Positions 4,391 to 60,645 are shown, counted from the stretch's first letter. The stretch is 64,000 nucleotides of DNA from Lingula anatina (GCA_051362555.1 CM120649.1:8928001-8992000), one strand, 5' to 3'. Notes: generated by a model from the letters alone, not told the origin. Program-made: numbers and translations.

Positions 4391-5980
4391 TAATATTCTG
4401 CTCCTAGGCACTCTGTTGAATTGGTAATCTTTTGGTCAAGTTAAGAGTGCAAATTTTTTATGCCTATAGTTTTGTGCTTTGTAGTTCTTATAGTCTTAAA
4501 ACAGTCTAATTCATGTTTTAATTGAGAATAATAATAAAAAATAACCTCATTCATTTGGGATGAAAGTCTATGGACAAAACAAAATGGCGTGTTTGTATAA
4601 TATCCTGATGGTAGCGTTTTAGATTGAGGGAAATCAGCAATGGGTCTTCTCTAACACAATCCCACGACAGAGCTATTATTATGTAACCAGGTGAGCAACT
4701 TGGTGAGAGGTATTCAGATAGGACCAAGGTCAGGAGGAAGAGGAAGACACCTCATATGCCACATTGTCACAATTGCCACACGTAGACTGAAATTTTTGCA
4801 CTGCAAACTGATGTAGTTTGTTGTAAGTATTTTATAGATGACATAATAGGCAACACTGGTCGGTTTATGTTGACGATATGTTATGAAAAAGTATGCATTT
4901 CCCACTTCAGGGGTAAAGGCTCTTGGGTATATTCCATTGACAAGAATGCCGAAATGAGCTTGAAAAGTTAAACAATTTTTACGTTGCTTTTTCCAGCAGG
5001 AAAGTATTTGCTCATAAAGAAGTGAGAAGATTATCCCAGCCGTCCAAAGGTCTGAACGCGTGATTCCGTCTTAAACAAAGCAAGACGACCAAACAGGTAA
5101 CTACCGGTACATTCTCAGCTCCCAATAGATACCTTTTTTCTTACGACAGTGGTTTGTACCAATATATCCTGTTAATTAAAGTTATCTGACACTAAGCATG
5201 GTTTTCTAGAGAACTAGGGATATGGCTTAGCAAAGATAGATAAATATAAAGATTAGTATGTTGACGTGTAACAGTGTGTACAGGGCATGCAATAGTAATG
5301 ATGTCGTTGTAATCTGTACATGTGTCATTGTATAGAACGTGTAGATTCAACATACTGAGGATATATCTGTTCTTGTAATATGATTATGATATCTCTTAAT
5401 GCATACCGAAATGGATCGGTGCAAAGATTATATTTCAGTTTATCAAATCCTTAGATATTTTTCTTGTTTGTGGATTTTGTGTAATCTATTTCATTTTTTA
5501 TTTAATTTCAGCAATTCGTAACGACCCGCTACGATGAGATTGGACGCACTCCCAGAAAAGACAACATATTTGCCAGCGCCCGCACCCATGTCAACGTTGT
5601 CTTGCGTGTCGAAGTTTGTCGTTTGGTCAACTTGCAGGGTTGAGATTTGATTTGGTTTGAAATGTAATGTTTGCTTTGGGTTGTAATTTTTGTATCAAAA
5701 CGTGTATCGAATGAAGTGCAGCGTGCAACAAATGTTTTATTCATGAAACTTCTAATAAAATTAACTAAATTTAAGCGTCAACCCTGCACGTCGCTGGTGT
5801 AAATAAGTTGTAGTACAGCACTCTATCCGCACACGATCTTTTCATTGTTATTTATTGATTTTTTTTTTTTTTTTTTTTGTTCATACCCACCAGTTTCCGA
5901 ACCTGAACAACTTAATCAAAAAAGGGGCTTGCTAAGTGATCTATGAAAATAAAATTAAATTGTTGTATAATTATCATTAA

Positions 5981-6349
5981 AGATACATACAAAGTCAATT
6001 TTTTGTCATAAAAACCAACCAAATGCCAGCATATAGTTTCAAGTAGTATAACTAAGAGAATTACCAAAAGGCATTGTTTAATTTTACCCGAAAGTGATGT
6101 TTGAACATATTTTTCTGCTAGCATTCTATGCTGTTATGTCAATGGGGCAAAGTAGGTCACGAAAGTAGGTTAAATTGACAACCAAAAATTTAAAGAAAGG
6201 GGCACTCTCTTTTATGGTTGATCGGGTGATTTATTCAGTTTATCCCTCGGCATGTCGAATTTATTAGATTCGTAGAAGAAACTAGTAGAAGTGGTTTACA
6301 TGTGTTACTGGGAATTCGCGCTCCACCGATGCTCGGTTCGTATGTACCT
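5981..6349. mobile_element. TTAA-targeting non-autonomous DNA transposon (Kolobok-like termini)
   Basis: ttaa|agatacatac ... gtatgtacct|ttaa. Copy B has the empty site with a single TTAA (tatcattaagtgatgtgc, ~39480-39497). Confidence 0.8.
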
Positions 6350-8168
6350 TTAAGTGATGTGCAGGTAGAGCACTGTGCTAGTGTGACCGGTTTAATGCTT
6401 GGTTGTAAAATTATGTGTGTGGGCAATTATGTAATAAGACGCTTTATTATGCATTTGAAAATGCATGTTTATTCGTATTAAATTTGATTTTAATGAAGTT
6501 AACTCTAGGGAAAAAATACGCCGCGATTCCATTATGTAAAATGCAAACAATCTTTATTGTGATTTCATTGGCCGGATGAAATGAACAAGGTGTAAATGTA
6601 CAGTAAACTGTAAACGCTGTAATCCAAATTATGAAATTTTAGAGTATAAAATTATAAAATGTACTCAAGTTATTGCAGAATTGCCCACACGTATTGAAAA
6701 ACGGGTCTTTCTAAAATTATGACACATGGTAAGAATAAACTTCCTTTGGTTCTCGGTGTTTTGATATACTAATAGTGTGTCTGATCAGTGATAGACCCAT
6801 AGTTTTATTACTTAGAGGGGGTGGAAATGTTTGTATTTTCAGAAAATCAAACCAGGGGTTGGGTTAGTTTTTTTTCGAAATTGGTAAGTTTTTGTTATTA
6901 AAAAAAGGAAAATTAACTTTTTACCTTCATTACAAAGCGGAACTGTTCACAAAGAGAAACAGTGAATAGTAGAAAGTGTTTCCTTTTGCGTCTTTTGTCA
7001 ATTAAAATGTATATGTAGGACTGGCATTTATCGCATCTTTTACCATTTGAAATTTTGAAAAATCCCTATCAAATTCGTATCGAAAACTACAGTTGTCGCA
7101 AAGCTCTGTTTTGGGGGTAATAGGTATTTCCTAGTAATTAAACGAACATATGTAGACTGTTATCTTTTGTCAATCCTCTAAAACACGGAATTTTCCTGTT
7201 AGTTTCCAATCCACTGACTTATTGTCTAAAAATCCTTTTTCTTTTGTGATTCTTATGTCTAATCAAATATGAAAAATCAAAATACTATCAGAAAAATGAC
7301 ACTTTGATTGATTAGAGTAAGTTTTACACAAAATTGAAAGGTCAGTATTTTATTTAATGTTGATCTTGTACTTGGTATTTTCTTAATTCTGTTTTGCGAA
7401 CGGGATCAAGGGGTGATTGAGAACAAAAGGCCTGATTAGGTGTCAGTCCTGCAGTGCTGTTGGGTTATTTTTACTAAGTGTTTCTTGATCACTGAGCACC
7501 AGAGATCTTTGAGTTTATTAGCAATTCCTGAGTAAATGTGATAAGTTATTTTAAGTAAACTGGTTTTCGCATAACCTTTTCAATTTTGTTGAGGAAGTTG
7601 TGGTGTCATGAGTGTGTACCCGCGTGCGGGGGAAACGCTTACATGAGATCATATGCATTTTGAATTTTCAATTTGATACCACCTTTGAATTTGGATAAAA
7701 ATGCCCCTCGGTAAAATTTTGGATCAGTCACAAGACAAATACACCAATGTCAACTTTGAACAACGGCTGTAAAATACTTCACGTCAAATCTTTAACTCTC
7801 TCTTTCAAGTCACAGCAAAAACCTGAGAATTTCTTGTTCTGGTCAGTATTATGTCGTCTCGTATGTAGTGTTCTTGAACACCTTTTTAAAACCAAAACGA
7901 TTGATCTTGATCGATAATTTTCAAAATGCATAGAAACTCCGACTCGTTTAGTTGTAGATAGTTGTATTTAAGCTTCATTTAAGCAATGCGAAGTCGTTCT
8001 GAAAATTACTTTTTATGTAGAGCCAAAACTTCATGTATAGGTTTTGCTTACATCTGTATAGTGGAATTGCTTGTATTTGTTATATAATAAACGTACATAA
8101 AAGTTGCAATAGACTAGTTTCAAAATGTGCAAAATATCAGATGTTCATTTCCGACTTTCTTTTCTTTA

Positions 8169-8549
8169 GCTCGACTCGAACCTTTGGTTAGCAACTTGGT
8201 TGTTTTCTTCTCCTTTTTGGTCTGTCGCCTTACCTACCGAGCCACTGCCTCAACTAGCTTATTTTCATTCGTATGATCCTCTTGTGGTAGTCTAAATTGT
8301 TTATTTGGGTTTATTTTTGCAAAAGGTAATTTGCTGGGACCTAGAAGCGCCAGGAATCGAACTGGCGACCTTCTGTCTCGGAGGCAAGCGCGTTACCTAC
8401 TTCTCTAAGTGTTCCCACCCACCCTCCTCGGGTAGACTTTCTTCTTATAGTAACCGAAGAAAAATTTTTGATGGCACCCCTTTGTAATTCCAAAGTGCCC
8501 GAACCAGGAATCGAACCCGAACCCCAACCCCAGGCTACCCCTGAGCCAT
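8169..8549 (-). other. Three tandem tRNA-derived (Pol III A-box/B-box) units, degenerate
   Basis: Minus strand: TGGCTCAGGGG..GGTTCGATTCC (8549-8496); TAGAGAAGTAGG..AGTTCGATTCC (8410-8341); TGGCTCGGTAGG..GGTTCGAGTCG (8245-8169). None forms a full cloverleaf. Duplicated at ~41553-41935. Confidence 0.6.
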
Positions 8550-8834
8550 GTAGCTATCAGGAAAAACGCCAAGACATTTTGTATATTCAGTAAGTTTTTT
8601 TTATTAAGAACAATTCAAATTTATTTTACTGTATTCAATTATAAATAAAACATGTATCTATAAAACATCATTGCCGTAAGTCTTTTTACTACTGCAAGTA
8701 TCTGTGAGAATATTATTGATGTCTGCACTTTAATTCACTTACAGGTGTAAAAAAAATATAACATTCTTATCTATTCGACTTGACAAATAAACTGTCTACC
8801 ACATTAATGGTATTATATTTGATCTTAATGAAAC

Positions 8835-8863
8835 CAGGGAATTATATTCGATATAATTCCCTG
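8835..8863. mobile_element. 29-bp palindromic insert with 7-bp TSD (transposon footprint)
   Basis: atgaaac|cagggaattatat-tcg-atataattccctg|atgaaac. Copy B has a single atgaaac at ~42198. Confidence 0.8.
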
Positions 8864-10607
8864 ATGAAACAAACAAAATATTTCAACTTCTTCTTAAAAA
8901 AACAACGGTGGTTGTCTCCGCCCTCCCTGAGGAGAGAGACCCATTCTGGACTCACATGATCAAGTCCTCGAAAGAATCCATCACGCTCCAAATGTCAACA
9001 CCTGTCCCCTGGATCCGCCATTGTTTTATATTTATATAACAATGAAAACTATGAGATATTTGTTAAATGCTTTTTGTACTTTTGAAATCTTATGAAATCT
9101 GGATTAAAATCCAAAGATCATATCACGATATTTCTCATATTTCCTACATCCATTTTCAATTTCAAAAATCTTGTAACAAATAATTTGCAACCTTCTGAAC
9201 ATAAATTGTTCTAAATACGAGAAAATATCTCTTATTTCTGCATCATCTGGTCAATAGAAGGAAAGATGCTGGTTATACAGAATTGCCGAAAACAATTAAA
9301 TTTGATTTATAAAATAATTTTCAATCATATAAATGGTCCCATCATCTTTACCCAGAACCTGTATTTGTTCAATAAATTAATGGTAAAAACATCAGTCATT
9401 TTCATGATAAAACGTGCCATATTTTACACTGTAAGAAATACATTCAGAGATAAATACTAAAATAACAAAATGAGTTGCTATTCTATCCTATGAATGGCAT
9501 TTACGTGTACAAAACCAGCTTTTCAAGAAAGGAATTTTCGCAACTGAAAATTGAAATTTGTAAATGAGAGAACAGTTTCATTAGCTCTGTATGTATTAAT
9601 TTGAATTATTGTTTTTCTTTTTATCATATATTTCATTTTTATAGAAATATTGGAGGTAATATCCACATATTTTATAAGCTCTTGATAAAAAAAAAACAAT
9701 TTAAATTGAAATTTGTAAATTGTACATACTTCACTAGTAAAACAAAATAATCGATCTTGGTTCGTAAAATTACATCTCTTACTTACAAGACAGCAAATAT
9801 TCAAATTTCAAGAGACGATATGCCTTTTTTCTCATCTGAACATTAAAAGAAAGACATACAATGATCGTCTGTTGTTACATTCTAGATGTCAGTCGATTTG
9901 GAGAATGAGACTGAAGAATATATACCCGGTAAAAACAGAAATGAAGAATTCGACACCGGGATGGTAGAATTTATCAACGGTAAAGATAGTGTGCTCTTTG
10001 GTGATTTATTTGAGATTGCTGAATGTTGCAGAAAAAAGGCTTTAAAACGACATAAAATTGGTATATTTTTGCGTACTTAATTCGCATTCGATCTAAACTT
10101 GAAAGTCACCCATTGCTGTCTTGCTGAAGAATACCACAAATCGATAGTACCTTTTCACATGTCACATGTGACCAACTTGAAACTACGACAGTATAGAACA
10201 TATTTCAATTCAATAAAATAAGCTTTCTAACGGATGACCATGCATTCTGATATATGATCACGTTTTAAATATATTATATTTAATTCCTATAAGACCTCAA
10301 ATCTGTGATGTTATATTGATAAATAAAACACGTGAAAAAAATCGCCTTTAGACAGAGCCTTTTCAAATCCGTCCCAAACAACATTTCGGGCTATCAACTC
10401 GCCCTTATTTCTTGAAGGATTCATCTTATAATCTGTCACGCAGAAATCTCAAGGACTTCAATTTAGCTCACACATGAAATGAAATATTAAATCTTAATTT
10501 ATGAAATCTTGTCAATATTCGAAATGGAAGTATATTACTGTACCCCCTTAATACTTGAATTATGTTCTTTACTCCAGAAATGGGCGTTATCATATATATA
10601 TACCTAA

Positions 10608-10775
10608 CAGGGGCGGATCCAGAGATATTTCCTGACAGTCTTCCAAATTATCTTTGTTGATTCGTTCTTCATTTTTGACCGTCTTCCGACAGAAAAAATT
10701 AGATACCCGCCAATGTAAACTTGAAAATCTGACCGTCTTCCGGACGACCCAGAAGACGCCCTAAATCCGCCCCTG
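10608..10775. mobile_element. hAT-like MITE (CAGGGGCGGAT family), copy A specific
   Basis: Termini caggggcggatccag / ctaaatccgcccctg with imperfect 8-bp TSD atacctaa/agtcctaa. Absent at ~44015 in copy B. Confidence 0.75.
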
Positions 10776-13700
10776 AGTCCTAAAAGGCTATATCATATTC
10801 TATAATTCCACTACCAACTGCTCACTAAATATCAACATGTCAATGGCCAGACCCTCACAAGTCATTTCACAGCATTTTCCCCTCCTTGCCCATTTCTCAC
10901 GGTAAACTTCCACTGCCACTACTATTTCTACCGACGAAGTTCAAAATACTGAAAATGAAGTGCAACTGCATCTTCCTTTGTTTTATGAGATGCGATGAGA
11001 TGAAGTGGTGGAGGAAATAAATAGTACGTTGGGAAAATGTTGGGAAATGACCAAAACCACTTTTAAGCAAACGGGCGTCAAAATACTTTTCAAAAATAAA
11101 TCACAATTAACTTATCACCAAATACCTGACATTGATTTCTTAAAACGTTATATTGATATGGCTGAAATTACGACATTCTTATACTTAATATCTAAGCCGC
11201 CTTCGATCCACTTCCTGATCATTGAGCACTGAGGCAGTGACGTCTCCTTCCAGGCTGTCCATCCCATTACATTCATGGTAGGGGGAGGTGGCAGGCTAAA
11301 GTGGCCGCCTTTTCTTTTCAACTCTCACCAATATTTTACGGATGAAACTTCATTTGTACTTTACAACATTAAAAATACATTGGACGAATTTGTGTTTAGC
11401 ATATTTCAAAAAATGCCAGACGAAAATTAACTTCAGATCCTTATCAACCCCAAATTGAAACGACATTATGTAGGTCACTGGCTATCTTGATATGACGCAA
11501 TATGGTACAATGATTTAAATATCTGAGCAGTTTTTGTTGTTTGACCAACTGACCATGAGATTGAGCCATTTGGAGGTAAACAGAAATGCTGCAATCGGAA
11601 ACTCGGTACTTTGTTCGAGATTTATAAATTTATAGACATAAAATAACCAGCGAATTATTTGTGAATATACGATGCTTTGATATTTTTATCTGTACAATAA
11701 AAGATATTTTATGCATATAATTCTCTCATCTTTGTTCATATTCTTTCATGAATGCATGTGTGAGTGTGTGTGTGTGCGCGCGCGCATTCTCTGTTGTTAG
11801 CAAATGCACCAATCGAATGGCGATATGGTACCATACAATTAATGATTTATTGTAAATAAAGTGATAGACAAATATGAGAAAAACAATAAAGTTATAGGTT
11901 ATCTACAAACTATAAGAGCTGTTCACGTACAGTTGCCGCCTTACTGAAAGTCAAAACCACATCAAGAGTGAGGAGTTCGATACGTTAGTAAGGTCAGCGT
12001 TTGACCAAACAACATTTTATATTAACGCAATAAAAAATAATAAAATCATTTGACTACTGCATATCTGCACCCTATGGCTGTATATAAGAAAGAAAGAAAA
12101 ACTGCAGCGAATCAAAAAAAAAAAAAAAAAAAAAACATTCATCTCGTCTTTTAACCCAGGGAGACTCATATCACACTTATTTTAAAACAGTTGCACTGGC
12201 TCCCTGATAGAGCACGCATTTTATTCAAAATTTTAACTTTTGAGCATGCAGTTTTTTTTTAATTAACACTCAGATTAACACTCAGATGATAACTAAAAGC
12301 TGTCGAAGAGAGCCACGGTCCTCAGATGTTTAAATTGGAGCGGGAGAATACAAAGGAACTCTTTATTTGCGTAGTTTAAAATATGCATGTTATCACTAGC
12401 TGGTGAAACACACTACATGTATTGCGGTCTATTTTATCACAGGTGAGGTGAAAATAGCTTAGCTTAAGGCTCTATTTGCCTTTCATATCGTAATTTTTCT
12501 ACTGGTTATAACAAGATAACAAAGATGAAGATGAATGTTCAGTGACTCAATAATATACATAAAAATCACGAATTATTCGATTTCAAGAAAGCGAGATCTG
12601 GAGCACAGAGAGAAAGCCGTCTCCAAGACATACCCCCACCCACTCCATAATACCGTGTTTTCAGAATCATAAACAGACTATTTCATTTCGATAGTTCAGA
12701 ACTAACGGTCAAAATCTGGTATTTGAATTTAACTCCTTTCATGCAGAAAACCAGATTACTACCATTGGTTTGAATGAATAATAATAAAAAGTACTGAGTG
12801 AAACTATTTCTGGCAATCAAGTTAACATTCGTACCTGCTACGTCAGTCTTTGAATCAAAATGGATGTAAATAGTTTATACGTTTTTAATTATGGTCATTT
12901 AATTTGCATCAGTACTTGAAATACACGTAAGGTAAAGCTTACACAAAAGGAGATCTAATGACAGAAGTCCAGTAACAGAAACACCCTTCCTCGTCTTAAT
13001 ACATGTATGTACACATTAGTTGGGCCAAAGAGGGCAGTCCTGAGAAAGTTTCGTGCGTTTAATTTTTAAAATTAAAATAGATCATGATGAAATAAGTAAT
13101 CTTAGACAAAATTTAATTTTGAAGGAATTTAATTTTGTTTTAATTAACACACATTTTATACATGTATGTACATTATGTAGAATACATATATATTTACTAC
13201 TATCTCTGTGTCAGTTATTAAACTCATCACACAAATCTATGAGTTGCAGAAGATACAGGTATATCTAATTATGTCAATAACAATACCTTACGACATTTTG
13301 GAGGTGTAGATTGCCACTTTAAATGAAATTAAATTGGTGTCGGTAACTCATTCAAAATACAGAACATATAGACTAATACGAGTATCACTTAAACTTGCAC
13401 AAAAGTATGAAAGCATCACGGAAGGATTATTGAGGATGGGGGGGGGGGGGGGGGAGGGGGGCAGGGCCATCCGGGCACATTTACGTCTTAGAAGCACTCG
13501 AGCTTCAATGGAATAATGCTCGCCTGCAACGCGGGCAGTCCGTGTTTGATTCCCAACAGATGCAAAATCTGTTAAACCGACAACTATTTGGAAAAAATGA
13601 TGTGTATTAATCCTGTCTTTAGAAACGTATTCTTTGCACAAGGGAGTTTCCTGGGTAGAATACTTTATGGTACGGCAGCTATGGATATGTTTCTAAATGA

Positions 13701-14300
13701 ATTCCTGGATGACAGGCTTTGTCAGTGATGCGCTTTTATAACTGTTCTCTGATAACTACAAGAAACTTTTGTTATTTGTTCTAAAAACTGCTTGTTAAAG
13801 AAAAAAGAACCAGAAACAGACCTCTTTCAGGTTGTTTTACTTCGACCAAGTGTAGTATAGTTGTTCTCAAAAATTGCACATAGTTGGTGCCAAAATAAAT
13901 CCTAGTTAGCATGTGGCCCATCCTAAATGCATGGCTCAATTTTTGGGGCCCACCCCTAGCCTTTTAGTAGACAAAAAGAATGTAACTCACCCCTACTGAT
14001 TCCGCCCCCCCCCTCTCCCCTCTCCCCCCGATATATAGCAATTGCTTTTTATAAGCACCTCGATATTAGGAATCGTTAATTCATAAAAAGGTAAATGGAT
14101 ACTGAATACATATATAAATAATCTAACATTGTGTAGAGGGTACACGTTGTCTGCCCACTGGATAGGACATACATGTAGAACACATTGGAGTAGAGGGAGG
14201 GGGAGTACTCTCAGGACCTTCTGGCTGTTACTAAATCCATCCCAATAGAAGTATATATATCAATGCACCTTGAAAGATCTACATTATAGTTGTTAAATAC

Positions 14301-14338
14301 AATCCGAGCTTTCGGCCCCTGGACCTTCTTCGGGGATT
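14301..14338 (-). ncRNA. Minimal type I hammerhead ribozyme motif (Penelope-like element associated)
   Basis: Minus strand AAUCC-CCGAAGA-A-GGUC(CAGG)GGCC-GAA-AGCU-C-GGAUU. Stem I is AAUCC/GGAUU, the core is CCGAAGA (a variant of CUGANGA) plus GAAA, stem II is GGUC/GGCC, palindromic AGCU replaces stem III, and predicted cleavage follows UC. Confidence 0.7.
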
Positions 14339-15601
14339 AAAAATACTTCTATTTTTATCAAGATCTATACGGTGAATCAACATGAATCCTTAAATTCATT
14401 CCAGGAACGAGTCGAGCTTTGGTTCGTAACAAGAAAAAAATTCCATTTGGTAGCTTCAATTATATTTTTACTGATAAAAATATTATCGAATGATTTAATA
14501 TCAAAATAAAGATTAATAAAAATCGCCACCTTTGGAATCTCTGGTTTGAGCATCACTTCCTGTCAGCTTTATTACTAAAGACAATCTAATTTGCATATAA
14601 GAGAACAATGCAGTTTTTTGCTTGTTTTGGGTTCATTACACATTTTTTTCATAATTTTCAAATATAAATGTTCCTTTTTCACATATACACTTATGAATAT
14701 TTTATCAGTACGCGCAATTTATTAGTTAAACAATCATAAATAACCATCATATCCCAAGTGTATATGACGTAATCTCTCCCAGGTCATAAAAGTGGTAAAA
14801 TAGCGATGATTGCCGCCCAGCTGGTGAAGTAGGTCAATTGCCTGTATAATACTGCCATACGATTATCGATTTTTTCTAGTGTGGAACATTTTAGGGGGAA
14901 GATGGTGAGAGAACATTATCAAGTTACCAAAAAATATTTGACATAAATAAAGTTACTGAAAGCAAAGTATATTGTAATATTTTACAAAGTTAAAAAAGAG
15001 TCCCAATTATTTAATTTCACAGTGTATAATTTTGCAGATATCGTGAGACATTTTTATTTCATCTGCCTCTCCCTAAAATGGCGCTGACCGCGTTAACTCT
15101 TCAACTCCCGGGAAACGCAGATAATCCAGCGCGTTGTGACAGCATGAGAACCGATATGTAGACATAGTATAGGAGCTGGGGTGGATTAAGAGAGAGTTAA
15201 CCCCCCCTCTCACACACCCATTTTCCAATCAGCAGGGAGAGTATGTGGTGGACTAACATTGTAAAATTTCCCTCAGCTCCAGGGCGTATAAAAAGATGAA
15301 AAGCTATGTGCTTGCAACACTATTTCTACCCGGCAACCGCGGGCACGTCTTGAGAACAATAAGCGGGTTACTCGTAGTGGACAGTGGTCAACAAGTCAGG
15401 AAGATCACACTAGGGACACTTAGGTAAACTGACCATTGGTGATGGGGTCATCAGTTGACCACAATACAGAGGTCACTGTTAGTGTTAGTGGGTTGTATTT
15501 GCATTTTCATAGATTTTGTATCAATAGTTTGTATATGGTATCATAATCAGTAATTTAATACCCGTGTATATAAAGCCCAGTGAGAACAGAGGGAAGAGAT
15601 A

Positions 15602-15902
15602 CAGGGGCGGATCCAGGATTATTTAAAGGGGTAGGGTCCGTTTTTTAGGAATGACAGGCAGCGGATGCAAAGCCGACCCTCGACCCCCTTCCTCCACCCT
15701 CATTGGCGTGGGGTTGGGACCCCACTGAATGGTCCTGAAATTTTTTTGTATTTTAGAGGGCCAACGGTGCCATTTAGTATTGTTTGGAAATATGATTCAG
15801 CAAGTCAAAATTTTAATTTCAGAAAGGGACCATTGGTGTGATTTTTTCCAGAAATCAAAGGGGGTCAGGATCCCACTGACACTCCCCCTCAATCCGCCAC
15901 TG
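15602..15902. mobile_element. hAT-like MITE (CAGGGGCGGAT family)
   Basis: Termini caggggcggatcc / aatccgccactg. Shared with copy B (~50016-50316). Related decayed copies lie at ~8903-9023 and from ~16065. Confidence 0.65.
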
Positions 15903-16230
15903 ATTTTGGTTTAAGCAAGCCCCTAAGAAGAGGGAATCATTAAAAATGTTCAAATGTGTAAAAGCAATTGCGACGATGTAAATTTTGAGAAAAAATACAG
16001 TATTTGGCAAATAATTCTGCAAAGAAGATACCACTTAGCTGAACGCAGTTTGCAGGTGGCATGACAGGGGCAGTTCCAGGATTTGAAAAGGGGGGGGGGG
16101 TGCAGTTTTTCTTACGAATAACAGGCCTTGGATTCGAAGCCGACCCTTGGCCCCCTTGTGTTATGCAGGACCCGCTGAAGGGCCCAAAAATATTTTGGTG
16201 TTTTGGAGGGCAAAATCGGGTCCATTTGGA

Positions 16231-16831
16231 CACGCTCGGCTGTCACCTTGATTGGATAGTAAACAATTGTCGTAATATCACTAAATGATTTTTAAAACGG
16301 GTGCATAAACTTGAAAACCACCTAGAACAACCTTAGACTGCCACACTAATCCAAAACAATGCCAAAATAAACTATAACAAGTGGTTAAAGCCTTCAAGCC
16401 GAATGTCGTAAAGTCCCCATATACCTCCATAGAGACAATAAAATAGAGTAAGCTTGTGAAACAAGATTCCACAAATTTAAACATAATAATCGAAATAAAA
16501 TACTGCCGGGTGTCGGAGCGGCCTAAAACTTGGCACGCTTACCGCAAATGCTGCAGGCTACATCATCCTGTCGCTCGTTTGTAAGTTCCATGCATGGCAT
16601 ACGCACAATCAAACCGTAAATCCAAATTCCCACCTTGACGTTTACTAGTAAGTCGGTCCACTCTGCTTTCAAATTCCACCGGGCTTACAAAAAAGAAGCC
16701 ATGTCATTGGACAATGCGACCTCTGCGGTTACGTCACTTCAAAAACTGGATGGTAGAGAGGACCGACTTAAAATCATTTAGTGATATTACGACAATCGTT
16801 TACTATCCAGTCAAGGTGACAGCCGAGCGTG
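16231..16831. mobile_element. 601-bp non-autonomous hAT-like transposon, copy A specific
   Basis: ~62-bp TIRs (cacgctcggctgtcaccttga...) with 2 mismatches and a perfect 8-bp TSD catttgga (16223-16230, 16832-16839). Empty site at ~50637 in copy B. Nested in an older MITE. Confidence 0.9.
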
Positions 16832-17689
16832 CATTTGGATTGGTTAAGGACTATAAAGCAGCTTGGGAATACAATTTATGTTGATTTTGAGAGGGGAGAA
16901 TTAGTGTTGTTTTTTTCTTTTCTTTGTTTTTTCTTTTTGGTTTTTGTAGAAACCGAGAACCCCCCCCCCCCCCCCATCCCCCTCTAAATCTACATGTACC
17001 TCTGGGTTAGCCTTTTTTAACCACTAAACTTCCCATGTTTTGACATTTGATTTGTTCACATATACATTTATTTATTATTATTATTGTTATGCTAGAATTT
17101 TATTTGTTGATTATAGCTCAGCATTCCTTATAAGTAACTGATACAGAATGTTGGCAGAGTTAGGTGGGCTGTTGTGTTGTGTTGATTGATAACTTCTTAA
17201 AATATTGAAATGACACTCTTGGAACTGGGAGAGAAGAGGGATTGTAAAAATTCACCAGGTGTGATTAACAACAATTTCTAACATTTTTCAATCTGTAGTA
17301 GAGTGTAGACAAATGGAACAAAATACAAATAATGGTTGTTTGCAAATTTATTACTTGTGACATGCAATTTAAATATTTAGTAATTAAGTTTAGGAACCAA
17401 TTTTTGTCCAGTGACAGAGTTTAAAATGTACATAATTACCATGTTTTTTGTTTTTGTTTTTTGTTTTTTTTTTTTGCTGTGTTGTCTGTCCCAGAATCAT
17501 TATGCAAAAAGTTATTAATACAGTTTGATGACATTTGTAGAAATTGAGGGGACCCAGAAACAAGTTAACAAAAAAAAAAAAAAAAAGGATTTTGGTTGTG
17601 ATCCATTTCTTAATAAGTAGTTCATTAATAAAATAAATCTGTTTATCAGCTCATTTAACAAAAAGGGACTTAGGGATTTTGTGTGTGAG

Positions 17690-17820
17690 AAACAGAGAAA
17701 GAAAAACAGAGCCAGGGAGAGAGAGAAAAAGAGCCAGAGAGAGAGAGAGAGAGAGAGAAACAGAGAGAGTCTCAGAGTGAAAGAGGAAAAGAGAAAGAGA
17801 GAGTGTGTGTGTGTTTGTGA
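17690..17820. repeat. (GA)n/(GT)n compound microsatellite (counterpart 51670-51830)
   Basis: Directly visible dinucleotide runs. Confidence 0.9.
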
Positions 17821-18580
17821 AACGAAACGATTTCATTTTACCCACTAATTTGTATGGAAAAGACTGCTGGTACTCTTGGAATAATTGTTTTAGAAAGTGA
17901 AAAGGTTTGTAAATTTTGTCTTTAACGAAGTGTCATGAAACCTAGGAAATATTACTGATGTGAACATTTCCTTTTTTTAAGAAGACCAAAATCAGCTGGG
18001 ATTTTAAAATTGTTTTTATTAATTTGTTTTATACTTTTCAGTTAGAACTCATTTACCTCTAAGGATCCGAAGTAATTGGAATATTTCAAGCTGCCCAAAT
18101 GTCTGAAGACATTATGACCCGTTTTAAATAAAGCAAGACAACTACAGGCCATGCTTGCAGCTCCTTATGAATACCACCATAATTACTGAAGACAGTGATT
18201 TCTTTTTGTATTTTTAAGTATCATATATAAACTGACAATTGTTTCTCAGGAAAACTAGCCGTGTCCAGACAAGGAAACATTTGCTTGGTTCTGCACACCT
18301 TCTGTGACATTCCATTCCTTGATATTACAATTTTGGATTAAGAAACTTGCATAATCAAAGAATTGGCATATCTATTTCATTTAAATGTGAAAATGCTGAA
18401 ATGTAGAAGCAAAAATATAATACTCAGTAATTGAGCTGTTTTTGGGTAAGTACATATACCACTGTTCATGTATGTATCTATAGTTAAATGTTTCAATGTA
18501 AAAGAAATAAAATAAGAAATGTGATTAAACATTTTGAGATAATTTAGCTAGCACTGGGATCAGGGAGTCAAAAATTTTGG

Positions 18581-18706
18581 TGCATTGTAATAAAGTAATT
18601 GATGTAGTACTTCATTTATTGTGCATTGGAATAAAGTAATTGATGCAGTACTTTGTTTATTGCATTGGAATAAAGTAATTGATGTAGTACTTTATTTATT
18701 GTGCAT
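18581..18706 (+). repeat. 41-bp minisatellite, ~3 units
   Basis: tgcattggaataaagtaattgatgtagtactttatttattg repeated. Confidence 0.9.
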
Positions 18707-19204
18707 TATACATTTTAATGCTAAATTAAACTTTTTAATTTAGAAAAGAAGGAAAAACAAAACTCATTTGATAACAGAAAATTGAATTTTTATTGTAAAA
18801 CTAAGAGAATGATATATTGAAGTTTTTAAATTGACTGCCACAGAGGTAAAAATACTCTAGTAGTTCTGCACTGTCCTCCCTGAAAAATAAGAAGATAAAA
18901 ACATTAAAATATAATTCAGGTAAAATTTATTAGTTATTAAAAGGCAGCAATCCAACAACCACCAGCTCTTGGCTGCTTTTATATAATAACTGCCTTCAAA
19001 TACAATTTTTACCAGTTGTTTGACATAGGTTGCCTCTTAAAAACCTCAACTTAGCTATGATGCCATCCAAAGAAGGAAACAAAATAACTTTCATATGACA
19101 GTAAAATAAATCTGTTCTTTTGAAAATGATGTCAAATTTTCCTAATTTCTGAATGATTGAAGTGATAATTTTTATTTAATAATAATAATAATAATAATAA
19201 CCAT

Positions 19205-21158
19205 TTATGTCCTTGACCTGCGCCTAAAGCAGGATGTAAAAAGATTAAATAATCTCCGCCACCGTGAAGGACGGCGATCCTTGGGTGCTGAAATATATGA
19301 CAAAACATTGCTCCGTAAAATGCTATTATATATTATAACCTTCAATATACAGTCTGTGCACCATCTTATTTCATAAATAAATCAACACTGAAACACATTT
19401 ACCACTGTTAAGAATAATCAAATTTTGAATTTCAATTAATACTTGTCAAAAGTACAAATACTGTTTGCACAACAAGGAGTGTATGTGTGTTTGTGTGTGT
19501 GCATGCAAGTGCATGCACAGTCACATTTTAACACTGTAATAAGTAGATACCTATTATATAGACCCTCCCGTCTTACCTCTCTCCTTCACGTCCTCTATCA
19601 CAATTTTTGTGTCTTTGACATTAACTGAAGAAAAAAATGGAAAACAAAATAATTCTGTCCATGAGCACAACAAGGATATCACACATAGTCAAAGATACAA
19701 AAATGAATAAGATCACCTAACAGTGAATTAACACAATGATTGTGTATGAGAGCCTGCTTCTGTGTGTGTGTGTGTGTGTGTAAACTTTTTGGGTGTGTTT
19801 AAATGGACCTAACTTTCTTACCTCTTTTCTTGATATCCTCAGCAAGTGACACACTGTTTGCATCTTTAATGTCGGCTAAAGCAAAAAATATGGAATAGAA
19901 ACCAAATGAAACAAAGTCCATGTTCAAACGGAATTCGGGCACAAATACGGAATTACATTGGTGAAAACACATTCAAATACAATTCACTTAAAATAAATTT
20001 GGATCTTCTTAAGTATGCTAAAGACAAGACTTTGGATAAGCAACGTGGTGTGTGTGTGTACTGTGTGAGAGTGCATGTTAGTGCGTGTGGACACATGTGC
20101 ATTACTGAGTTTCTGGTCTCACCTATCTCCTCAATACTTTTAACAACTGTTAAAACTGTTGCATATTTCTTGTCTTTGGTATCAACTGAAAGAACAGAAG
20201 CAAATTTAAAGGAGTGCAAATCATGTTCAATCTTTACACAGTAAAAGCATGGATTTTTCTGAAAATAAAGAGTGTGTGTGTGTGCAAGTGTGCACATTTG
20301 TAGATTTCATATGTGTATTTAAATAATAAATATTTTACTGAGATTCTTGTCTTACCTGTCTCTTCAGTGTTAGGAGCCTTTACTCTGTTATCATCCTTGG
20401 CATCAACTGAAACAGAATAATTAAAATGAAAGGGAATACAATTTATATTGAATCTAAGCTTAACACGTTACGTTACGGCAGTAGTAATGTAATTACAGGT
20501 AAGTAAGAAACAAGAGGGGATGTGTTAGTCAGTTATGTTTTTTTATTAATCTTATTGCATTCTGAAGTTTCCATGGAGTTAGTGTGCATTGGCTAGGTAG
20601 ACAAAATTGACCAAATTCATTGTGAATGGTCCCTGGTAATCAACAGCTTCAAGGGTCAAGACTTGCACCCTGAGAGTTAAGGTGTTTGTAGTCAAAAACA
20701 TTGATAATTTTACTTCAAGATTCCTTGCAAATAGTGAGAATGAACAAACACACCAAGTAAATGGCTAAAATCAACTGAATTATTACCTGCAATTTGCTTA
20801 TCACTGGTGTGGACTTCAGGTTCATATGTGTAGTTAGACTCTGGAATAAGATGCATACATTTTTTGTTATTCACAAATTATGATATAGACATTGAGAATG
20901 AAATAGTCTAAATTTCATTTGATAGAATTAAAGGACCATTTCTTTCCATATCTTACATTTATAGAATAATAATAATGTTAATTCACTTTTTCTTTCCATT
21001 AGTTAGATTTAATAGAATTATAAGACCTTTTATTTCCATGTCCAGTTCTCCCCATGTACAGGTCACTTCCATGCTGTCCTTGGTGGTCACCTGGAGGCAC
21101 CTGTTCCTAAAGGGTTCAGGCTCCCATATCCAGCCAGACCCAGGGTGGTAAGGCTTAA

Positions 21159-21193
<35 letters not shown>

Positions 21194-22216
21194 ATTGAAG
21201 ATAAGTTAATGTCTGAAATGAAAAAGAAAATCCAAATGAAAAGATACATATATTTAAAATTTGACTAATCAAAAACATTGTAATCTACAAGAAATGAATG
21301 AAGCTAAAAAAAAAACACTTAAATTTGTTGAACTTAGATTTTCTTTTTCAATAAAAAGGAAAATAATTTTCATCTCAGTTCATTTGTCATTTCAAATAAA
21401 TTAATATAATATACTTACGTTTTGCGGTCTAACAAACTTCCACTCTATATTTGCAGCCTTGGGCAGAAGAACTTCCGCCCTTAGAACAGGGACACCCAAC
21501 TCGGTGCACCTAGCAAGGTTTACACCACGTTGGGTGTCCCATGTCCCAAGGGCAGTTCCTCTGCCCACTATCTTGGCTTTTAAGATATTGTCCTTCAAAA
21601 CTATTCGAACAGTGGCCATGGCTGTTCAAAATAAAATAGAAAGAAATCTTGTTAATATAACTTTTTGATGTTGTAATTGCAGACATTCAAATCATTCACT
21701 AAATATCAAAAAAGAAAGGGATATATTGCATTCTTATTATGAAAAAGTAAGTCAATTTCTTTTTCATTTATATAAGAACATTTAAAAGTATGCAAGAGCA
21801 GTTTAGGACAATGTATTGATTTGGTAGAACATGTATTAGACTTAGTCCCCATACCTAGATCTATCTTATATAGGATCAATCCATCTCCAAGGGTTTTTTC
21901 CCTAAATTGCAATCAACTTAAGCAGCTTAGATGTGTGTCAGAAGCTGCTAGGGGGATATTAATGATCATTTAGCACCTTCAGTAGGAGTGGCAGACATCT
22001 AAGACGCTTAAGATGAAAGCAATTTTGGGAGAAACCCCTTGGAGATGGATCGGCCCTGTCAGATCGGTCTAGGTATGGGAACTCAGTCTATGACTCATAC
22101 AGTGTACAGCCTGATTATATATTAATAACTTCTCGTGCATGCACGCACACACACACACACAACTTACGAGCACACTGCTCTTCTTTATTATTTTCAGTTT
22201 CCATATCAACTGACAT
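19205..22216 (-). CDS. CBM20 (starch/glycogen-binding) domain protein, 243 aa, 9 coding exons (copy A)
   Basis: Manually spliced exons, all GT-AG and in phase: 22216-22168, 21621-21419, 21153-21027, 20840-20787, 20406-20356, 20185-20123, 19875-19822, 19624-19577, 19287-19205 (732 nt including TAA). Protein: MSVDMETENNKEEQCAPMATVRIVLKDNILKAKIVGRGTALGTWDTQRGVNLARCTELGVPVLRAEVLLPKAANIEWKFVRPQNPYHPGSGWIWEPEPFRNRCLQVTTKDSMEVTCTWGELDMEIKESNYTYEPEVHTSDKQIAVDAKDDNRVKAPNTEETVDTKDKKYATVLTVVKSIEEIADIKDANSVSLAEDIKKRVNVKDTKIVIEDVKERAPKDRRPSRWRRLFNLFTSCFRRRSRT*. CBM20 motifs VG...LGxW, LP...IEWKFV, WE...NR and the terminal W are present. The donor after 21027 (GTCTTA) is weak. Confidence 0.85.
21837..22090. 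mobile_element. MITE in an intron of CBM20 gene copy A (counterpart ~58196-58453)
   Basis: TIRs tagacttagtccccatacctagatc / ggtctaggtatgggaactcagtcta. Related to the MITEs at 34555 and 50777. Confidence 0.75.
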
Positions 22217-22388
22217 CTGCAAGAAATAAATCAAATCATACTTTAACAAGTTCCAATATCTTTCTTTTGTAGTGATACACACCATTATATTGGGATGATC
22301 AGCAAAAAATCAACGTTGTGTAACAAGAAATTCTCCGTAACCTGGATACAAACTTTCATGGTTAATTTTGAACAAAAATATAACTTAC

Positions 22389-22540
22389 CAGCGATTGTGC
22401 AAGATTATCTCTTTGCTTTGTTTACTAAAGCAATAAACAGGAATAATTACTGTATAAAGAAATTTGATTGGACGGCTCCTGTATTGTTCCTTAACTTTAA
22501 ACCAATCGGAATGGCGCTATTTTGACGGTCTCGACGTGAC
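22389..22540 (-). promoter_or_regulatory. Putative non-coding first exon and core promoter of CBM20 gene copy A
   Basis: Strong minus-strand donor (CTG|GTAAGT) at 22389, needed because the first coding exon starts directly at an acceptor (cag|ATG). Upstream are CCAAT boxes at 22466-22471 and 22502-22507 and a CRE-like GACGTGAC at 22533-22540. Conserved in copy B. Confidence 0.5.
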
Positions 22541-23475
22541 ACTCTCTGCTTTACAAATCACAATATATCACATGCAACTTAAACCTGGACATATCCTGTG
22601 TAAGATGCTTAATGCCTCCATCCTTGCACGGGTTTTTTGGGAAGCAGGCGATGAACCTCTGACTCATATCGGTTGGGGTGTATGGTGTAAACCCAAAGTC
22701 TCACCTCTTGCACAGCGCCATCTATGCTCAATGTTAACATGGCGTCAGTGATAATGCCGAAAATTTCATCAAACTTTCTGCACACTGAGTGTCATCCTCT
22801 GTCAGGGCATTCTTAAATGGTTCTGTCATAGTGTCTATTGCAAAACTTCACCTATGAGGTCAGGATAAAACATCTGAAATGAAGGATACATATGGACTGT
22901 GTCAGTTGTTCACTGTTCACATCACGATGCAATGTGCTTGTCACAATGTGACGATATTAGCAAGTTTTATAGACCGTAAGTGCTTTTGGAAAACAGACAA
23001 GATTGAATGCCGTCATCCACTTCAACTTTTTCATCTGTAATGATGCAACATTTTGCGATGGCATGTAAAGGTGAGATGATTATAAATCAGAGCACAACTG
23101 ACGTTGTCTTCTATTATAAATACAATTTCCTATTGTTCTTCTTGAGTCATCTGACGAAATAGTAATAACTTGACTTTAGAGTGATCACTTACGTGTATTA
23201 GTACTACCGTCCCGAGCTTCAGACACCACTGGAAATCCACATGTCTTCTGTATTACCAGCACTAGTATAGTGTATGCCTCCGGCTGTAACTAACAACAAT
23301 ACTAATTTTTACTCATTCCCTCAAGGTTTATTTGTTGAACAAAACTAATAAAATGTCATTACTCTCAGACTCTGGAACTTCTTGAGGAAAATGCCTGACC
23401 ATTGAGTTTTTTTGTCTCTTCCAGTCCATCATATGACTTAAGTCTACTTCACTGACCTAAGAAGAACAGAAATCA

Positions 23476-24185
23476 CTGCCACAGTGGAACACAATGACTC
23501 CAGACTACTGCGCTGTGCTAGAAGACACAGGACTGTACTGCCACAATGAAACACAATAATTCCAGACTACCACAGTGTACTAGGAGACACAGGACTATAC
23601 TGCCACAATGGAACACAATGACTCCATCTTACTACAGTGTACTAGGAGACACAGGACTATACTGCCACAATCGAACACAATGACTCCAGACTACTGCACT
23701 ATACTAGGAGACACAGGACTGTACTGCCACAATGGAACACAATGACTCCAGACTACTACAGTGTACTAGGAAGCACAGGACTATACTGTCACAATGGAAC
23801 AAAATGACTCCAGACTACTACAGTATACTAGGAAGCACAGGACTATACTGCCACAATCGAACACAATAACTCCAGACAACTACAGTATACTGGGAAGCAC
23901 AGGACTATACAGCCACAATGGAACACAATGACTCCAGACTACTGCACTGTACTAGGAGACACAGGCCTATACTGCCACAATGGAACACAATGACTCCAGA
24001 CTGCTACACTATGCTAGGAAGCACAGGACTATATTGCCACAATGGAACACAATGGCTCCAGACTTCTACAGTGTACTAGGAAGCACAGGACTATACTGTC
24101 ACAATGGAACATGATGACTCCAGACTACACTATACTAGGAGGCACAGAACTATACTGCTACAATGGTACACAATGTTTCCAGACT
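23476..24185 (+). repeat. 62-bp minisatellite, ~11 units
   Basis: ctgccacaatggaacacaatgactccagactac... recurs at 23476, 23538, 23600 etc. Confidence 0.95.
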
Positions 24186-25204
24186 AATTTTCAAGATGGT
24201 CAGATAACAACATGAGTTTCATTTATTAAATCTTCTTATGTAGATCACATTGTCTTCTGGATCTTTTCATATTTCAGTAGCTTGTTAAAAATCTTGTGAT
24301 GGGGTCGCCTTAACTAGCCCTAAGGAGCAGTGACAGTGTACGATTTCCGTCAATCAAAAAGAACTGCTCCGCAATTAATCTGCAGTTGAATGTCATTAAA
24401 CCAAAATGAAACGTAAAACAGATTTAATTCTGCTTTATTTAATCTTATTTACTGTATTTAAGGTGTAAAGTGAAAAATAAATAATATGTTTCTAAAAGAA
24501 AAAGATATATCCAATGTTTTTGTATTTTTGGCTTATCAAAGAACATTTGCTCCTGAAGATATAAACACAATACATGTGCTTGCCCTGTACCAAGTTGGAC
24601 AGCTACACTGTATGCCCGATACCACTATAAGGGCTGCGCAATGGCTAGACCAAACTCGGGGGGGGGGGGGGGGGGGTTTAAAGCAGAATGTTGTTTGTGT
24701 TGTGGTACTGACCTTCGACTGCAAGATATTCTTAGTTCAAACTTCAAACTCCACTTCAGCCACTTAACTTCTTGTCTCGTCTAGATAACGTCAGCTCCAG
24801 GCGGGAAAGGCAGCTCCAGGCAGTCAAACCTGTGACGTACGAGACTTATGACTTCCAAATATGCAGCTCAGGCGCATACATCTGTGACATACAAGACTTG
24901 TGACTTCCAAATGTGGAAGCGCCCCAGGCAAAATTTTGCTGAAGAACGCCTCCAGGTGGCTAGAGTTTCATATTGCTGATATGGGATATATATGAAATCA
25001 AGATCAAGCTGGCAATAAGGAAATCTAGAACCTAGGGTATGTAATGCCTGATATTTGGGTGAATTTGTGCTGCTACTGATGTAAGAATTTTTATGTAAAT
25101 CTCTCAGGTATTTTATTGCTTTGTCAAAGAAACCAAAGAAACAGTTTTAAGACGCATAAAAAGAGTAGATTGTTTTAAAGGTGAATTTTTTTATCATCTT
25201 CCAG

Positions 25205-25462
25205 CTGATCACACATGTCCTCCACATAAGTTGGTATGTGGTAATGGCCGCTGTATTAACTTTATCATGGAGATGTGACCACAACAATGACTGTAGAGTT
25301 ATTTACCAGACTAACGTGCAAACTTCTGCTGCATCACACAGGCTCAAGTATGCGATGAAACAGATCACTGTAATGATCACTGATGAAAATGGCTGTCCAC
25401 CAGCAACTTGTGCCCCAGGGATGACCAAGTCCATCAGAGTGAACAGAGGAAACAGTCAACAG
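25205..25462 (+). pseudogene. LDL-receptor class A repeat exon fragments (LRP-like), frameshifted and internally deleted
   Basis: After acceptor ttccag: DHTCPPHKLVCGNGRCIN(+1 frameshift)LSWRCDHNNDCR, fused to a second repeat CITQAQVCDETDHCNDH(frameshift)DENGCPPATCAPGMTK; ends at donor CAG|gtaaat. Confidence 0.8.
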
Positions 25463-31905: not shown

Positions 31906-32278
31906 AGTAAGTCAAATATAATTCAGTTAAAAAGTAATTTGTATCACTATGCCATTAACATTTTTGCAAGTGACAAGTGTCTGTTCACCCCATCATAAAT
32001 ACCACGTTTTATTTTTTGAAAATGAATAGCTCTGTGCATATGTCATATTGTTAGGTTGAAGAAAATGTATGAAAACAATAAATAGGTTGGTAAATTTTTT
32101 GGATGAATTGCATATTAGTCTCATGGACTGGAAATCCGTGGAAGATAGTAAAGATGGTAATAAACAAAATTAGTTTGCCACACCTGTCTCTAGACAAATA
32201 TATGCTTCATACAAAAATGTTAGTTGTTTAACCTATATTTATGTGGTAAAGTTAAAGTGATGTTTTCTTTTTTCTCAG

Positions 32279-46841: not shown

Positions 46842-46888
<47 letters not shown>

Positions 46889-58500: not shown

Positions 58501-58590
58501 GCATGCACACAGACACACACACACACACACACACAACTTACGAGCACACTGCTCTTCTTTATTATTTTCAATTTCCATATCAACTGACAT
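55561..58590 (-). CDS. CBM20 domain protein, 243 aa, 9 coding exons (copy B paralog)
   Basis: Exons 58590-58542, 57977-57775, 57519-57393, 57209-57156, 56775-56725, 56549-56487, 56239-56186, 55984-55937, 55643-55561. Exon lengths and splice sites match copy A, with no stops or frameshifts. Substitutions seen: METE>MEIE, KAKIV>KAKAV, VDAKD>VDTKD, VNVKD>VEVKD, FNLF>FNIF, FRRR>FRHR. Confidence 0.85.
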
Positions 58591-58715
58591 CTGCAAGAAA
58601 TAAATCAAATCATACTTTAACAAGTTCCAATATCTTTCTTTTGTAGTGATACACACCATTATATTGGGATGATCAGCAAAAAATTAACGTTGTGTAACAA
58701 GAAATTCTCCATAAC

Positions 58716-60591: not shown

Positions 60592-60645
60592 CCATAACCT
60601 GGATACAAACTTTCATGGTCAATTTTGAACAAAAATATAACTTAC

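What the first reader, a model, noticed from the sequence alone, without database searches (positions are those of the whole stretch)
19205..22216. Hidden stand-alone CBM20 protein with a C-terminal membrane-anchor-like tail: candidate new glycogen-tethering adaptor
Seen: nine exons splice in frame to 243 aa, intact in both duplicated copies. Established: the N-terminal motifs match CBM20, including the binding-site-1 residues (W of LGxW, K of EWKF, W of WE, NR; equivalent to laforin W32/K87/W99), while the site-2 Trp position appears replaced by Leu. The well-known animal CBM20 proteins are laforin (plus phosphatase), GPCPD1/GDE5 (plus phosphodiesterase) and STBD1 (N-terminal membrane anchor, C-terminal CBM20). 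This protein has no catalytic domain and the reverse layout of STBD1. Inference: a non-catalytic adaptor tethering glycogen to a membrane or organelle.
Basis: partly seen in the sequence, partly recalled or inferred. Interest (0 to 1): 0.85.

Follow-up and report, generated by a model that had tools for sequence, protein, structure and literature searches.

The report
Lamp-shell glycogen receptor with membrane helix
This is a real, spliced and already catalogued lamp-shell (brachiopod) gene with a starch/glycogen-binding-type domain at one end and a predicted membrane-binding helix at the other, and it likely hands glycogen to autophagy membranes as known oyster and yeast receptors do.

Summary
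The gene is real. Nine exons splice to an open 243-aa frame in both tandem copies, and RNA reads show 6 of the 8 introns. The domain is CBM20 by Pfam and by predicted fold, with site 1 intact. It is neither hidden nor a new layout. Close relatives are RefSeq Lingula anatina genes (93% identity), and they sit in the published dataset defining STBD1-alpha, the lophotrochozoan glycogen receptor with an N-terminal CBM20 (PMC12913940). The tail is not transmembrane; it is a basic amphipathic helix. Glycan module, disordered linker and C-terminal amphipathic helix is also the layout of the yeast glycophagy receptor Atg45 (PMC11145338). Best reading: a divergent brachiopod STBD1-alpha-type receptor that likely binds glycogen and grips autophagy membranes through the helix. 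Weak points: Atg8-binding motifs occur at chance level, STBD1 site 2 is mostly lost, no mollusc protein is among the hits, and nothing was assayed. The helix seems undescribed for animal STBD1-alpha, so this is a modest new variant.

The parts
22705..22740 (-). Upstream coding exon used by RefSeq models; adds 12 aa (255-aa form); also at 60994 in copy 2
   Evidence: 12/12 match to the P0002 N-terminus, GTGAGA donor, in frame; sense-strand depth in bin 22600-22749 in X2; joint not seen
22389..22470 (-). Candidate non-coding first exon (243-aa form) beside two opposed CCAAT boxes at 22467 and 22502; 5' limit approximate
   Evidence: GTAAGT donor, no ATG, upstream in-frame stops; low sense depth in X2 and X3; joint not seen; inferred
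22168..22216 (-). Coding exon 1 (aa 1-17), ATG directly after the acceptor
21419..21621 (-). Exon 2: first two thirds of the CBM20 (W44, L63, K78)
   Evidence: Pfam PF00686 29.1 bits; PDB alignments; reads in X2 and X3
21027..21153 (-). Exon 3: rest of the CBM20 (W94, N101, W118); weak donor used in RNA
20787..20840 (-). Exon 4 (54 nt, phase 1-1): start of the linker
   Evidence: RNA joints on both sides
20356..20406 (-). Exon 5 (51 nt, phase 1-1): linker microexon
   Evidence: RNA joints; similar to exons 6-8
20123..20185 (-). Exon 6 (63 nt, phase 1-1): linker microexon with the only linker AIM-like core, YATV 169-172
19822..19875 (-). Exon 7 (54 nt, phase 1-1): linker microexon
19577..19624 (-). 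Exon 8 (48 nt, phase 1-1): linker microexon
19205..19287 (-). Exon 9: basic amphipathic tail (aa 217-243; helix about 226-240, C236, RRPS 221-224, S241 third from the end) and stop codon
   Evidence: hydrophobic moment 0.62, shuffle P 0.007, tail charge +9; AF2 helix at low confidence; joint 19287/19577 in 9, 8 and 8 reads
55561..58590 (-). Second, intact copy of the gene (same nine exons)
4512..25298 (.). First unit of a direct duplication (second unit 37501-63793), 82-97% identical by segment

Best explanation
A spliced, expressed brachiopod gene encodes a non-catalytic protein with one N-terminal CBM20, a predicted disordered microexon-built linker and a basic amphipathic C-terminal helix, and it likely works as an STBD1-alpha/Atg45-style glycophagy receptor. 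Shown: the gene model (6 of 8 introns in RNA), the CBM20 match, intact site-1 residues, no catalytic domain, no transmembrane segment, and an amphipathic, positively charged tail. Predicted: the beta-sandwich fold, linker disorder and tail helix. Inferred: (1) site 1 (W44, K78, W94, N101) stacks on alpha-1,4-glucan chains of glycogen; (2) the roughly 90-residue linker acts as a flexible spacer whose length changes by gain or loss of phase-1 microexons; (3) the tail helix lies in an anionic membrane surface, possibly helped by acylation of C236; (4) together with a weak Atg8-binding core (YATV), this holds glycogen against the forming autophagosome for lysosomal breakdown; (5) phosphorylation at RRxS sites could release it.
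For: Pfam CBM_20 above cut-off. AF2 domain pLDDT 81-91. Foldseek best hit is STBD1 CBM20 8x8k, E 1.4e-6, TM 0.79 by target; VIA Z 12.9, rmsd 1.8 A over 92 residues, tied with glucoamylase (13.5) and GPCPD1 (13.1). Site-1 residues match STBD1 W293/K322/W334/N339 and oyster W36/K69/W83/N88. The three RefSeq relatives are in the STBD1 evolution alignment, and L. anatina is scored with 3 STBD1-alpha. Oyster STBD1-alpha binds glycogen and GABARAPL2. Atg45 has the same three-part layout, and its C-terminal amphipathic helix binds membranes and is needed for glycophagy. Tail moment 0.59-0.62 in three sequences, shuffle P about 0.01 each. Selection looks purifying: 6 non-synonymous codons over 571 sites against 6 synonymous over 158, and both listed read variants in the tail are synonymous.
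Against: No binding or localisation was tested. AIM cores after the domain are at chance level (2 observed, 1.36 expected, P 0.41); no xLIR match; YATV follows basic residues. STBD1 site 2 (H271, Y272, V273, R333, W355) keeps only the last Trp, by eye. No mollusc or vertebrate STBD1 is among the 8 hits at E<=0.001 in 1.84 billion representatives. Another Lingula CBM20 (XP_023931029) carries the mollusc-type EWKWVV/RWE signature that this family lacks (by eye). The published tree file was cut short, so placement and support were not seen. RefSeq models of three paralogs (P0003, P0004, P0005) lack the tail. The AF2 tail helix has pLDDT only 50-58. The three fold hits are tied, so the fold does not single out STBD1.
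Confidence: 0.5

Rival explanations
1. A glycogen-to-membrane tether without autophagy. The CBM20 holds glycogen particles or glycogen enzymes at the plasma membrane or an organelle through the basic helix, and kinase or 14-3-3 action on RRPS/RRRS releases them.
For: AIM cores are no more frequent than chance. Strongly basic tail (+9) with RRxS at 221 and 238 and Ser third from the end, the pattern by which NPH3 is released from the plasma membrane (PMC8531446). Junction reads came mainly from the three runs of one study, hinting at restricted expression.
Against: Every characterised stand-alone glycan-module protein of this layout that I read about (oyster STBD1-alpha, Atg45) is a glycophagy receptor. 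Kinase and 14-3-3 motifs are short and common in Arg-rich tails. The NPH3 parallel is an analogy only.
Confidence: 0.27
2. A fast-evolving, lineage-specific paralog family whose CBM20 has shifted ligand or role, for example sensing foreign or symbiont alpha-glucans, as has been speculated for the RNF213 CBM20.
For: At least five RefSeq loci plus two window copies. No close relative outside Lingula. Site 2 is altered and the loop after strand 1 looks shortened (by eye). Linker microexons differ among copies. RNF213 precedent.
Against: Site 1 residues W44, K78, W94 and N101 are kept in all four full CBM20 relatives aligned. Copy divergence looks purifying, not positive. No immune domain was found: 1 CBM20 hit and 1 sub-threshold hit in 122 ORFs scanned.
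Confidence: 0.15
3. The basic tail is a nuclear or nucleolar localisation or nucleic-acid-binding signal rather than a membrane helix, or the gene is a dispensable duplicate.
For: Nine Arg and one Lys in 27 residues. Tail absent from three paralog models. No junctions listed in 4 of 8 runs.
Against: Hydrophobic residues fall on one helical face beyond shuffle expectation in three sequences. The frame is intact in both copies with synonymous bias.
Confidence: 0.08

Closest known systems
STBD1-alpha of lophotrochozoans (oyster STBD1, LOC105333128; PMC12913940)
   Same: Single N-terminal CBM20, no catalytic domain, no N-terminal hydrophobic segment, site-1 W/K/W/N, only non-canonical AIM-like cores, lineage-specific duplication. 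The RefSeq relatives of this gene are in that paper's alignment.
   Different: The CBM20 is very divergent (no mollusc hit at E<=0.001) and lacks the EWKWVV/RWE signature and site-2 Arg. It has a C-terminal amphipathic basic helix, which the paper's main text does not mention (0 hits for amphipath, palmitoyl, exon, Lingula); oyster STBD1 is described as binding glycogen in a free state.
Yeast Atg45 (Yil024c; PMC11145338)
   Same: N-terminal glycogen-binding module, linker with a Tyr-type AIM, and a C-terminal amphipathic helix that binds membranes and aids glycophagy; similar size (189 aa against 243).
   Different: Atg45's module is PF16561, not CBM20 (PF00686), so the likeness is in layout and probably convergent. 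Its AIM and helix are tested; here both are only predicted.
Vertebrate STBD1-beta (genethonin-1; PDB 8X8K; PMC11406230)
   Same: CBM20 fold (best Foldseek hit) and site 1; a membrane-targeting segment at the end opposite the CBM20.
   Different: Reverse order; hydrophobic ER anchor rather than an amphipathic basic helix; canonical W-x-x-V LIR; full site 2.
Laforin, GPCPD1 and RNF213
   Same: N-terminal CBM20 or CBM20-like domain.
   Different: All carry catalytic domains. Here Pfam finds only CBM_20 and the transcript splices into the stop-bearing last exon.
RefSeq L. anatina LOC106177204, LOC112042489, LOC112041521, LOC106159370, LOC106180838
   Same: Same family: 226/242, 172/194, 121/172 and 115/121 identical to copy 1 for four of them; LOC106159370 is 45% identical to P0002 over the domain.
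   Different: Named only 'uncharacterized'; none is letter-identical to the window copies; models differ in first exon, microexon content and tail.

Membership tests
CBM20 (PF00686) | Score above the Pfam gathering cut-off | tested here: met
   29.1 bits for exon 2 and 32.5 for P0002, against 23.3
CBM20 (PF00686) | Ig-like beta-sandwich superposing on solved CBM20s | tested here: met
   AF2 model of P0002; Foldseek 8x8k E 1.4e-6; VIA Z 12.9-13.5
CBM20 (PF00686) | Site-1 Trp, Lys, Trp, Asn | tested here: met
   W44, K78, W94, N101; equivalents named
CBM20 (PF00686) | Binds starch or glycogen | not testable with these tools
   needs a binding assay
STBD1-alpha | Single N-terminal CBM20, no other domain, no N-terminal hydrophobic segment, lophotrochozoan host | tested here: met
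   host inferred from 92-95% identity to L. anatina proteins
STBD1-alpha | Falls in the STBD1 clade of the CBM20 tree | tested here: inconclusive
   Relatives are in the published alignment and the species count of 3 matches the three single-domain RefSeq proteins, but the tree file was cut, no mollusc homolog was retrieved and no tree was built here
STBD1-alpha | AIM/LIR motif outside the domain | tested here: inconclusive
   YATV 169 and WRRL 226 fit the loose core used for oyster STBD1, but at chance level (P 0.41) and with no xLIR match
STBD1-alpha | Binds Atg8-family proteins and drives glycophagy | not testable with these tools
STBD1 (vertebrate, beta type) | N-terminal hydrophobic anchor and C-terminal CBM20 | tested here: not met
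   reverse order; no hydrophobic segment
STBD1 (vertebrate, beta type) | Site 2: H271, Y272, V273, R333, W355 | tested here: not met
   only the last Trp (W118) is kept; by-eye comparison
Atg45 | PF16561 glycogen-binding domain | tested here: not met
   Pfam gives only PF00686
Atg45 | C-terminal amphipathic helix | tested here: met
   by sequence: moment 0.62, shuffle P 0.007; AF2 helix at low confidence; membrane binding itself untested
Laforin / GPCPD1 | Phosphatase or phosphodiesterase domain after the CBM20 | tested here: not met
   spliced reads run to the stop-bearing exon; no such Pfam hit in the protein or in 122 ORFs

The most novel reading that the evidence does not exclude
Brachiopods evolved, independently of yeast Atg45 and apart from true STBD1, their own glycogen receptor family: a divergent CBM20 joined by a microexon-tuned spacer to a phospho-switchable amphipathic membrane helix. 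It would be an animal counterpart of Atg45 that captures glycogen on membranes largely without a canonical Atg8 motif.
Probability: 0.2. Interest if true: 0.6.

Novelty: new variant of a known kind. Interest (0 to 1): 0.33.

Why it matters
Glycophagy receptors appear to need two grips, one on glycogen and one on the autophagic membrane. Vertebrate STBD1 uses an N-terminal ER anchor, yeast Atg45 a C-terminal amphipathic helix, and oyster STBD1-alpha is described as unanchored. If the helix here binds membranes, an animal N-terminal-CBM20 protein has reached the Atg45 solution, and 'STBD1-alpha' would be a mixed group that needs a fresh tree. That would refine a 2026 evolutionary model and is easy to test. 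It is not a new class of protein.

Tried and rejected
Transmembrane anchor: rejected. Continuation into a catalytic domain: rejected; reads splice into the stop exon, and 122 of the window's 180 stop-to-stop ORFs of 62 aa or more (repeat arrays and most of the duplicate copy left out) gave only the CBM20 exon and one sub-threshold DUF3479 hit. A decayed upstream coding region at 22740-23470 as a lost N-terminal domain: not supported; frames are broken and the spliced RNA there is on the opposite strand. Further CBM20 copies in the window: none beyond the two. Rfam: 0 matches. No whole genome was held, so copy number and synteny are untested. No RNA holder was listed by index; the runs used came by species label. 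Earlier scan findings: nothing in 3 look-ups. The Atlas search for the linker and tail did not complete, so tail look-alikes rest on HMMER only. The Atlas search of P0002 gave only generic CBM20 clusters. P0007 (Spironucleus repeat protein) was judged a chance hit. Horizontal transfer from algae or protists was considered because the nearest non-Lingula hits are such CBM20s, but they are weak (E 5.8e-10 or worse) and uninformative. No tree was built, since no STBD1-alpha sequence was retrieved by a tool. No complex was predicted. Literature: CBM20 + Lingula gave 0 papers; five locus or accession terms gave 0 in main texts; CBM20 + amphipathic helix + glycogen gave 1, the Atg45 paper.

Full report
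Observation. The minus strand of 19205-22216 carries nine exons with GT..AG introns that join to 732 nt and an open frame of 243 aa (earlier trials with wrong exon limits are). The region lies in a direct duplication, 4512-25298 against 37501-63793, 82-97% identical by segment. The second copy (58590-55561) is also open. It differs at 15 nt, in 6 synonymous and 6 non-synonymous codons, over about 158 and 571 sites, which suggests purifying selection on small numbers.

Expression. Nine RNA runs were listed by species label, none as an indexed holder; 8 of the 9 were laid. Joints for introns 3-8 appear in X1 (7, 5, 12, 8, 17 and 9 reads), in X2 (10, 10, 4, 1, 3, 8) and for five of the six in X3; X9 shows intron 3 only; X4, X5, X7 and X8 show none. 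X1-X3 reads over the coding exons lie almost all on one strand, consistent with a minus-strand gene. Introns 1 and 2 were not listed in any run. Exon 2 has depth 2.8 and 1.8 in X2 and X3, and the tool dropped rows beside repeats, one of which abuts exon 3. Reads differ from the window by 1-10%, so they show that the family is expressed, not which copy.

Identity. Exon 2 retrieves RefSeq Lingula anatina proteins XP_023933041 (P0002) and XP_023932861 (P0003) at 97-98% over that exon. Further relatives are XP_023930636 (P0004), XP_013391095 (P0005) and the linker-plus-tail model LOC106180838 (P0014). Copy 1 is 226/242 identical to P0002 and 115/121 to P0014. The host is therefore inferred to be Lingula, and the gene family is annotated, not hidden. 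RefSeq begins one exon earlier; that exon is in both window copies (22740-22705, 255 aa). An ATG-free exon with a donor at 22389, next to opposed CCAAT boxes, would give the 243-aa form. Neither joint was seen.

Domain. Pfam CBM_20 scores 29.1 bits for exon 2 alone and 32.5 for P0002, cut-off 23.3, with no other family. AlphaFold2 on an 8-sequence alignment gives a beta-sandwich at P0002 residues 30-140 (pLDDT 81-91), a low-confidence linker (148-237) and a C-terminal helix at 239-253 (pLDDT 50-58). Foldseek ranks STBD1 CBM20 (8x8k, E 1.4e-6) first, then GPCPD1 and glucoamylase. VIA ties the three at Z 12.9-13.5. Site 1 is complete: W44, K78, W94, N101, matching STBD1 W293/K322/W334/N339 (PMC11406230, passages) and oyster W36/K69/W83/N88. 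Of STBD1-type site 2 only the last Trp (W118) is kept, by eye.

Linker and tail. Exons 4-8 are 48-63 nt, all phase 1-1 and multiples of three. Exons 5-8 resemble one another (local scores 57-77 among them, 30-48 for other pairs), suggesting exon duplication. Reads and RefSeq models show length variants. There is no hydrophobic segment: the best 19-residue hydropathy is 0.92, inside the CBM20, and tail windows are about -1 or lower. The last 27 residues have net charge +9. The best 18-mer has hydrophobic moment 0.62 (shuffle P 0.007; 0.59 and about 0.01 in copy 2 and P0014; the window was chosen as the best of 13, so P is optimistic), with W226, L229, F230, F233, C236 and F237 on one face. RRxS motifs lie at 221 and 238 and S241 is third from the end. 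Both listed read variants in the tail are synonymous. AIM-like cores after the domain are YATV and WRRL: 2 observed, 1.36 expected, P 0.41, no xLIR match. The tail is missing from the P0003, P0004 and P0005 models, which may be annotation error.

What is known. PMC12913940 (abstract, passages, sections 7, 8, 10, 21, part 1 of 11, and supplements seen: Data 6-7, parts 1-2 of 3 of the alignment, passages of the review file, and only the first 400 characters of the tree) defines STBD1-alpha: lophotrochozoan proteins with one N-terminal CBM20 and no hydrophobic N-terminus. The oyster protein binds glycogen and GABARAPL2. Its Data 6 scores L. anatina with 3 STBD1-alpha, 1 STBD1-related and 1 GPCPD1, and its alignment holds five Lingula rows including P0002, P0003 and P0004. 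That these three are the three STBD1-alpha is my inference; the tree was cut. The main text has no hit for amphipath, palmitoyl, exon or Lingula. PMC11145338 (passages) shows yeast Atg45 with an N-terminal glycogen-binding domain (PF16561), an AIM (YVNL) and a C-terminal amphipathic helix that binds membranes and acts together with the AIM in glycophagy. That is the same three-part layout as here, built on a different module. PMC11549300 (passages) adds RNF213 to the animal CBM20 proteins. PMC8531446 (passages) gives a precedent for an amphipathic helix released by phosphorylation of a third-last Ser. Other papers were seen only as search listings.

Against a plain STBD1-alpha. HMMER of P0002 over 1.84 billion representatives gave 8 hits at E<=0.001: two Lingula paralogs, four algal, protist or unnamed CBM20 proteins, one Spironucleus repeat protein and one unnamed protein with a similar tail; none is a mollusc or vertebrate STBD1. 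By eye, mollusc rows share EWKWVV and RWE motifs that this family lacks but another Lingula protein, XP_023931029, has. Membership by layout is met; membership by descent is open.

Mechanism. Shown: gene, splicing, domain, site 1, absence of catalytic and transmembrane parts. Inferred: the CBM20 binds glycogen, the linker spaces it from the membrane, the basic amphipathic helix lies in an anionic membrane, and with a weak AIM it holds glycogen at the forming autophagosome (0.5). Rivals: a non-autophagic, phospho-regulated glycogen tether (0.27); a divergent family with a shifted ligand or immune role (0.15); a nuclear-signal tail or dispensable duplicate (0.08).

Verdict. What remains is an Atg45-like helix and a microexon linker on a divergent animal N-terminal-CBM20 protein, which I did not find described (searches). 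New variant of a known kind; interest 0.33.

Noticed in passing
window 23070-23423, + strand: A spliced transcript on the opposite strand (GT..AG joint, 7 and 14 reads in X2 and X3) lies head to head with the gene, overlapping the RefSeq first exon region. Two opposed CCAAT boxes at 22467 and 22502 suggest a bidirectional promoter. No long ORF there.
   Followed up: partly
window 23193-23283, - strand: An exon-like stretch upstream of the gene matches the last 15 residues of RefSeq P0003 (10 of 15), so that model's C-terminus may be a mis-splice into the neighbouring duplicated unit.
   Followed up: partly
window 21850-22100 and 22890-22940: Interspersed repeats: reads from all runs pile up on both strands with loose ends. 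The first lies in intron 1.
   Followed up: no
window 58715-60592, 45726-46988, 52186-54081: Insertions of 1.3-1.9 kb found only in the second duplicated unit; the first sits in the gene's 5' intron. No Pfam hit in the ORFs scanned there.
   Followed up: partly
window 405-1926, 29370-31906, 26742-27895, 23475-24186, 61716-62117, 62858-63412: Tandem arrays with periods 193-194, 146, 62 and 52 bp. The 194-bp family lies just upstream in coordinates of each duplicated unit.
   Followed up: no
P0011 (unnamed ENA protein, 558 aa), residues 500-558: A non-CBM20 protein ends in a similar acidic-repeat plus PSxWRR-F..F..C tail (34% over 59 aa; library E 9.6e-4). It may be a recurrent tail type.
   Followed up: partly
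PMC12913940 Supplementary Data 13: By eye, one Sipunculus nudus row shares a VVG....ALGGWD..RG motif with P0004 and others are similar, so they may be the nearest non-brachiopod relatives. The Lingula rows seem misaligned at strand 1. The fourth paralog P0005 is under the Pfam cut-off (21.3) and is not among the five Lingula rows.
   Followed up: no
window 20787-21153 and 22168-22216, runs X8 and X9: Reads with clustered differences point to a more divergent paralog expressed in a different study's samples.
   Followed up: no
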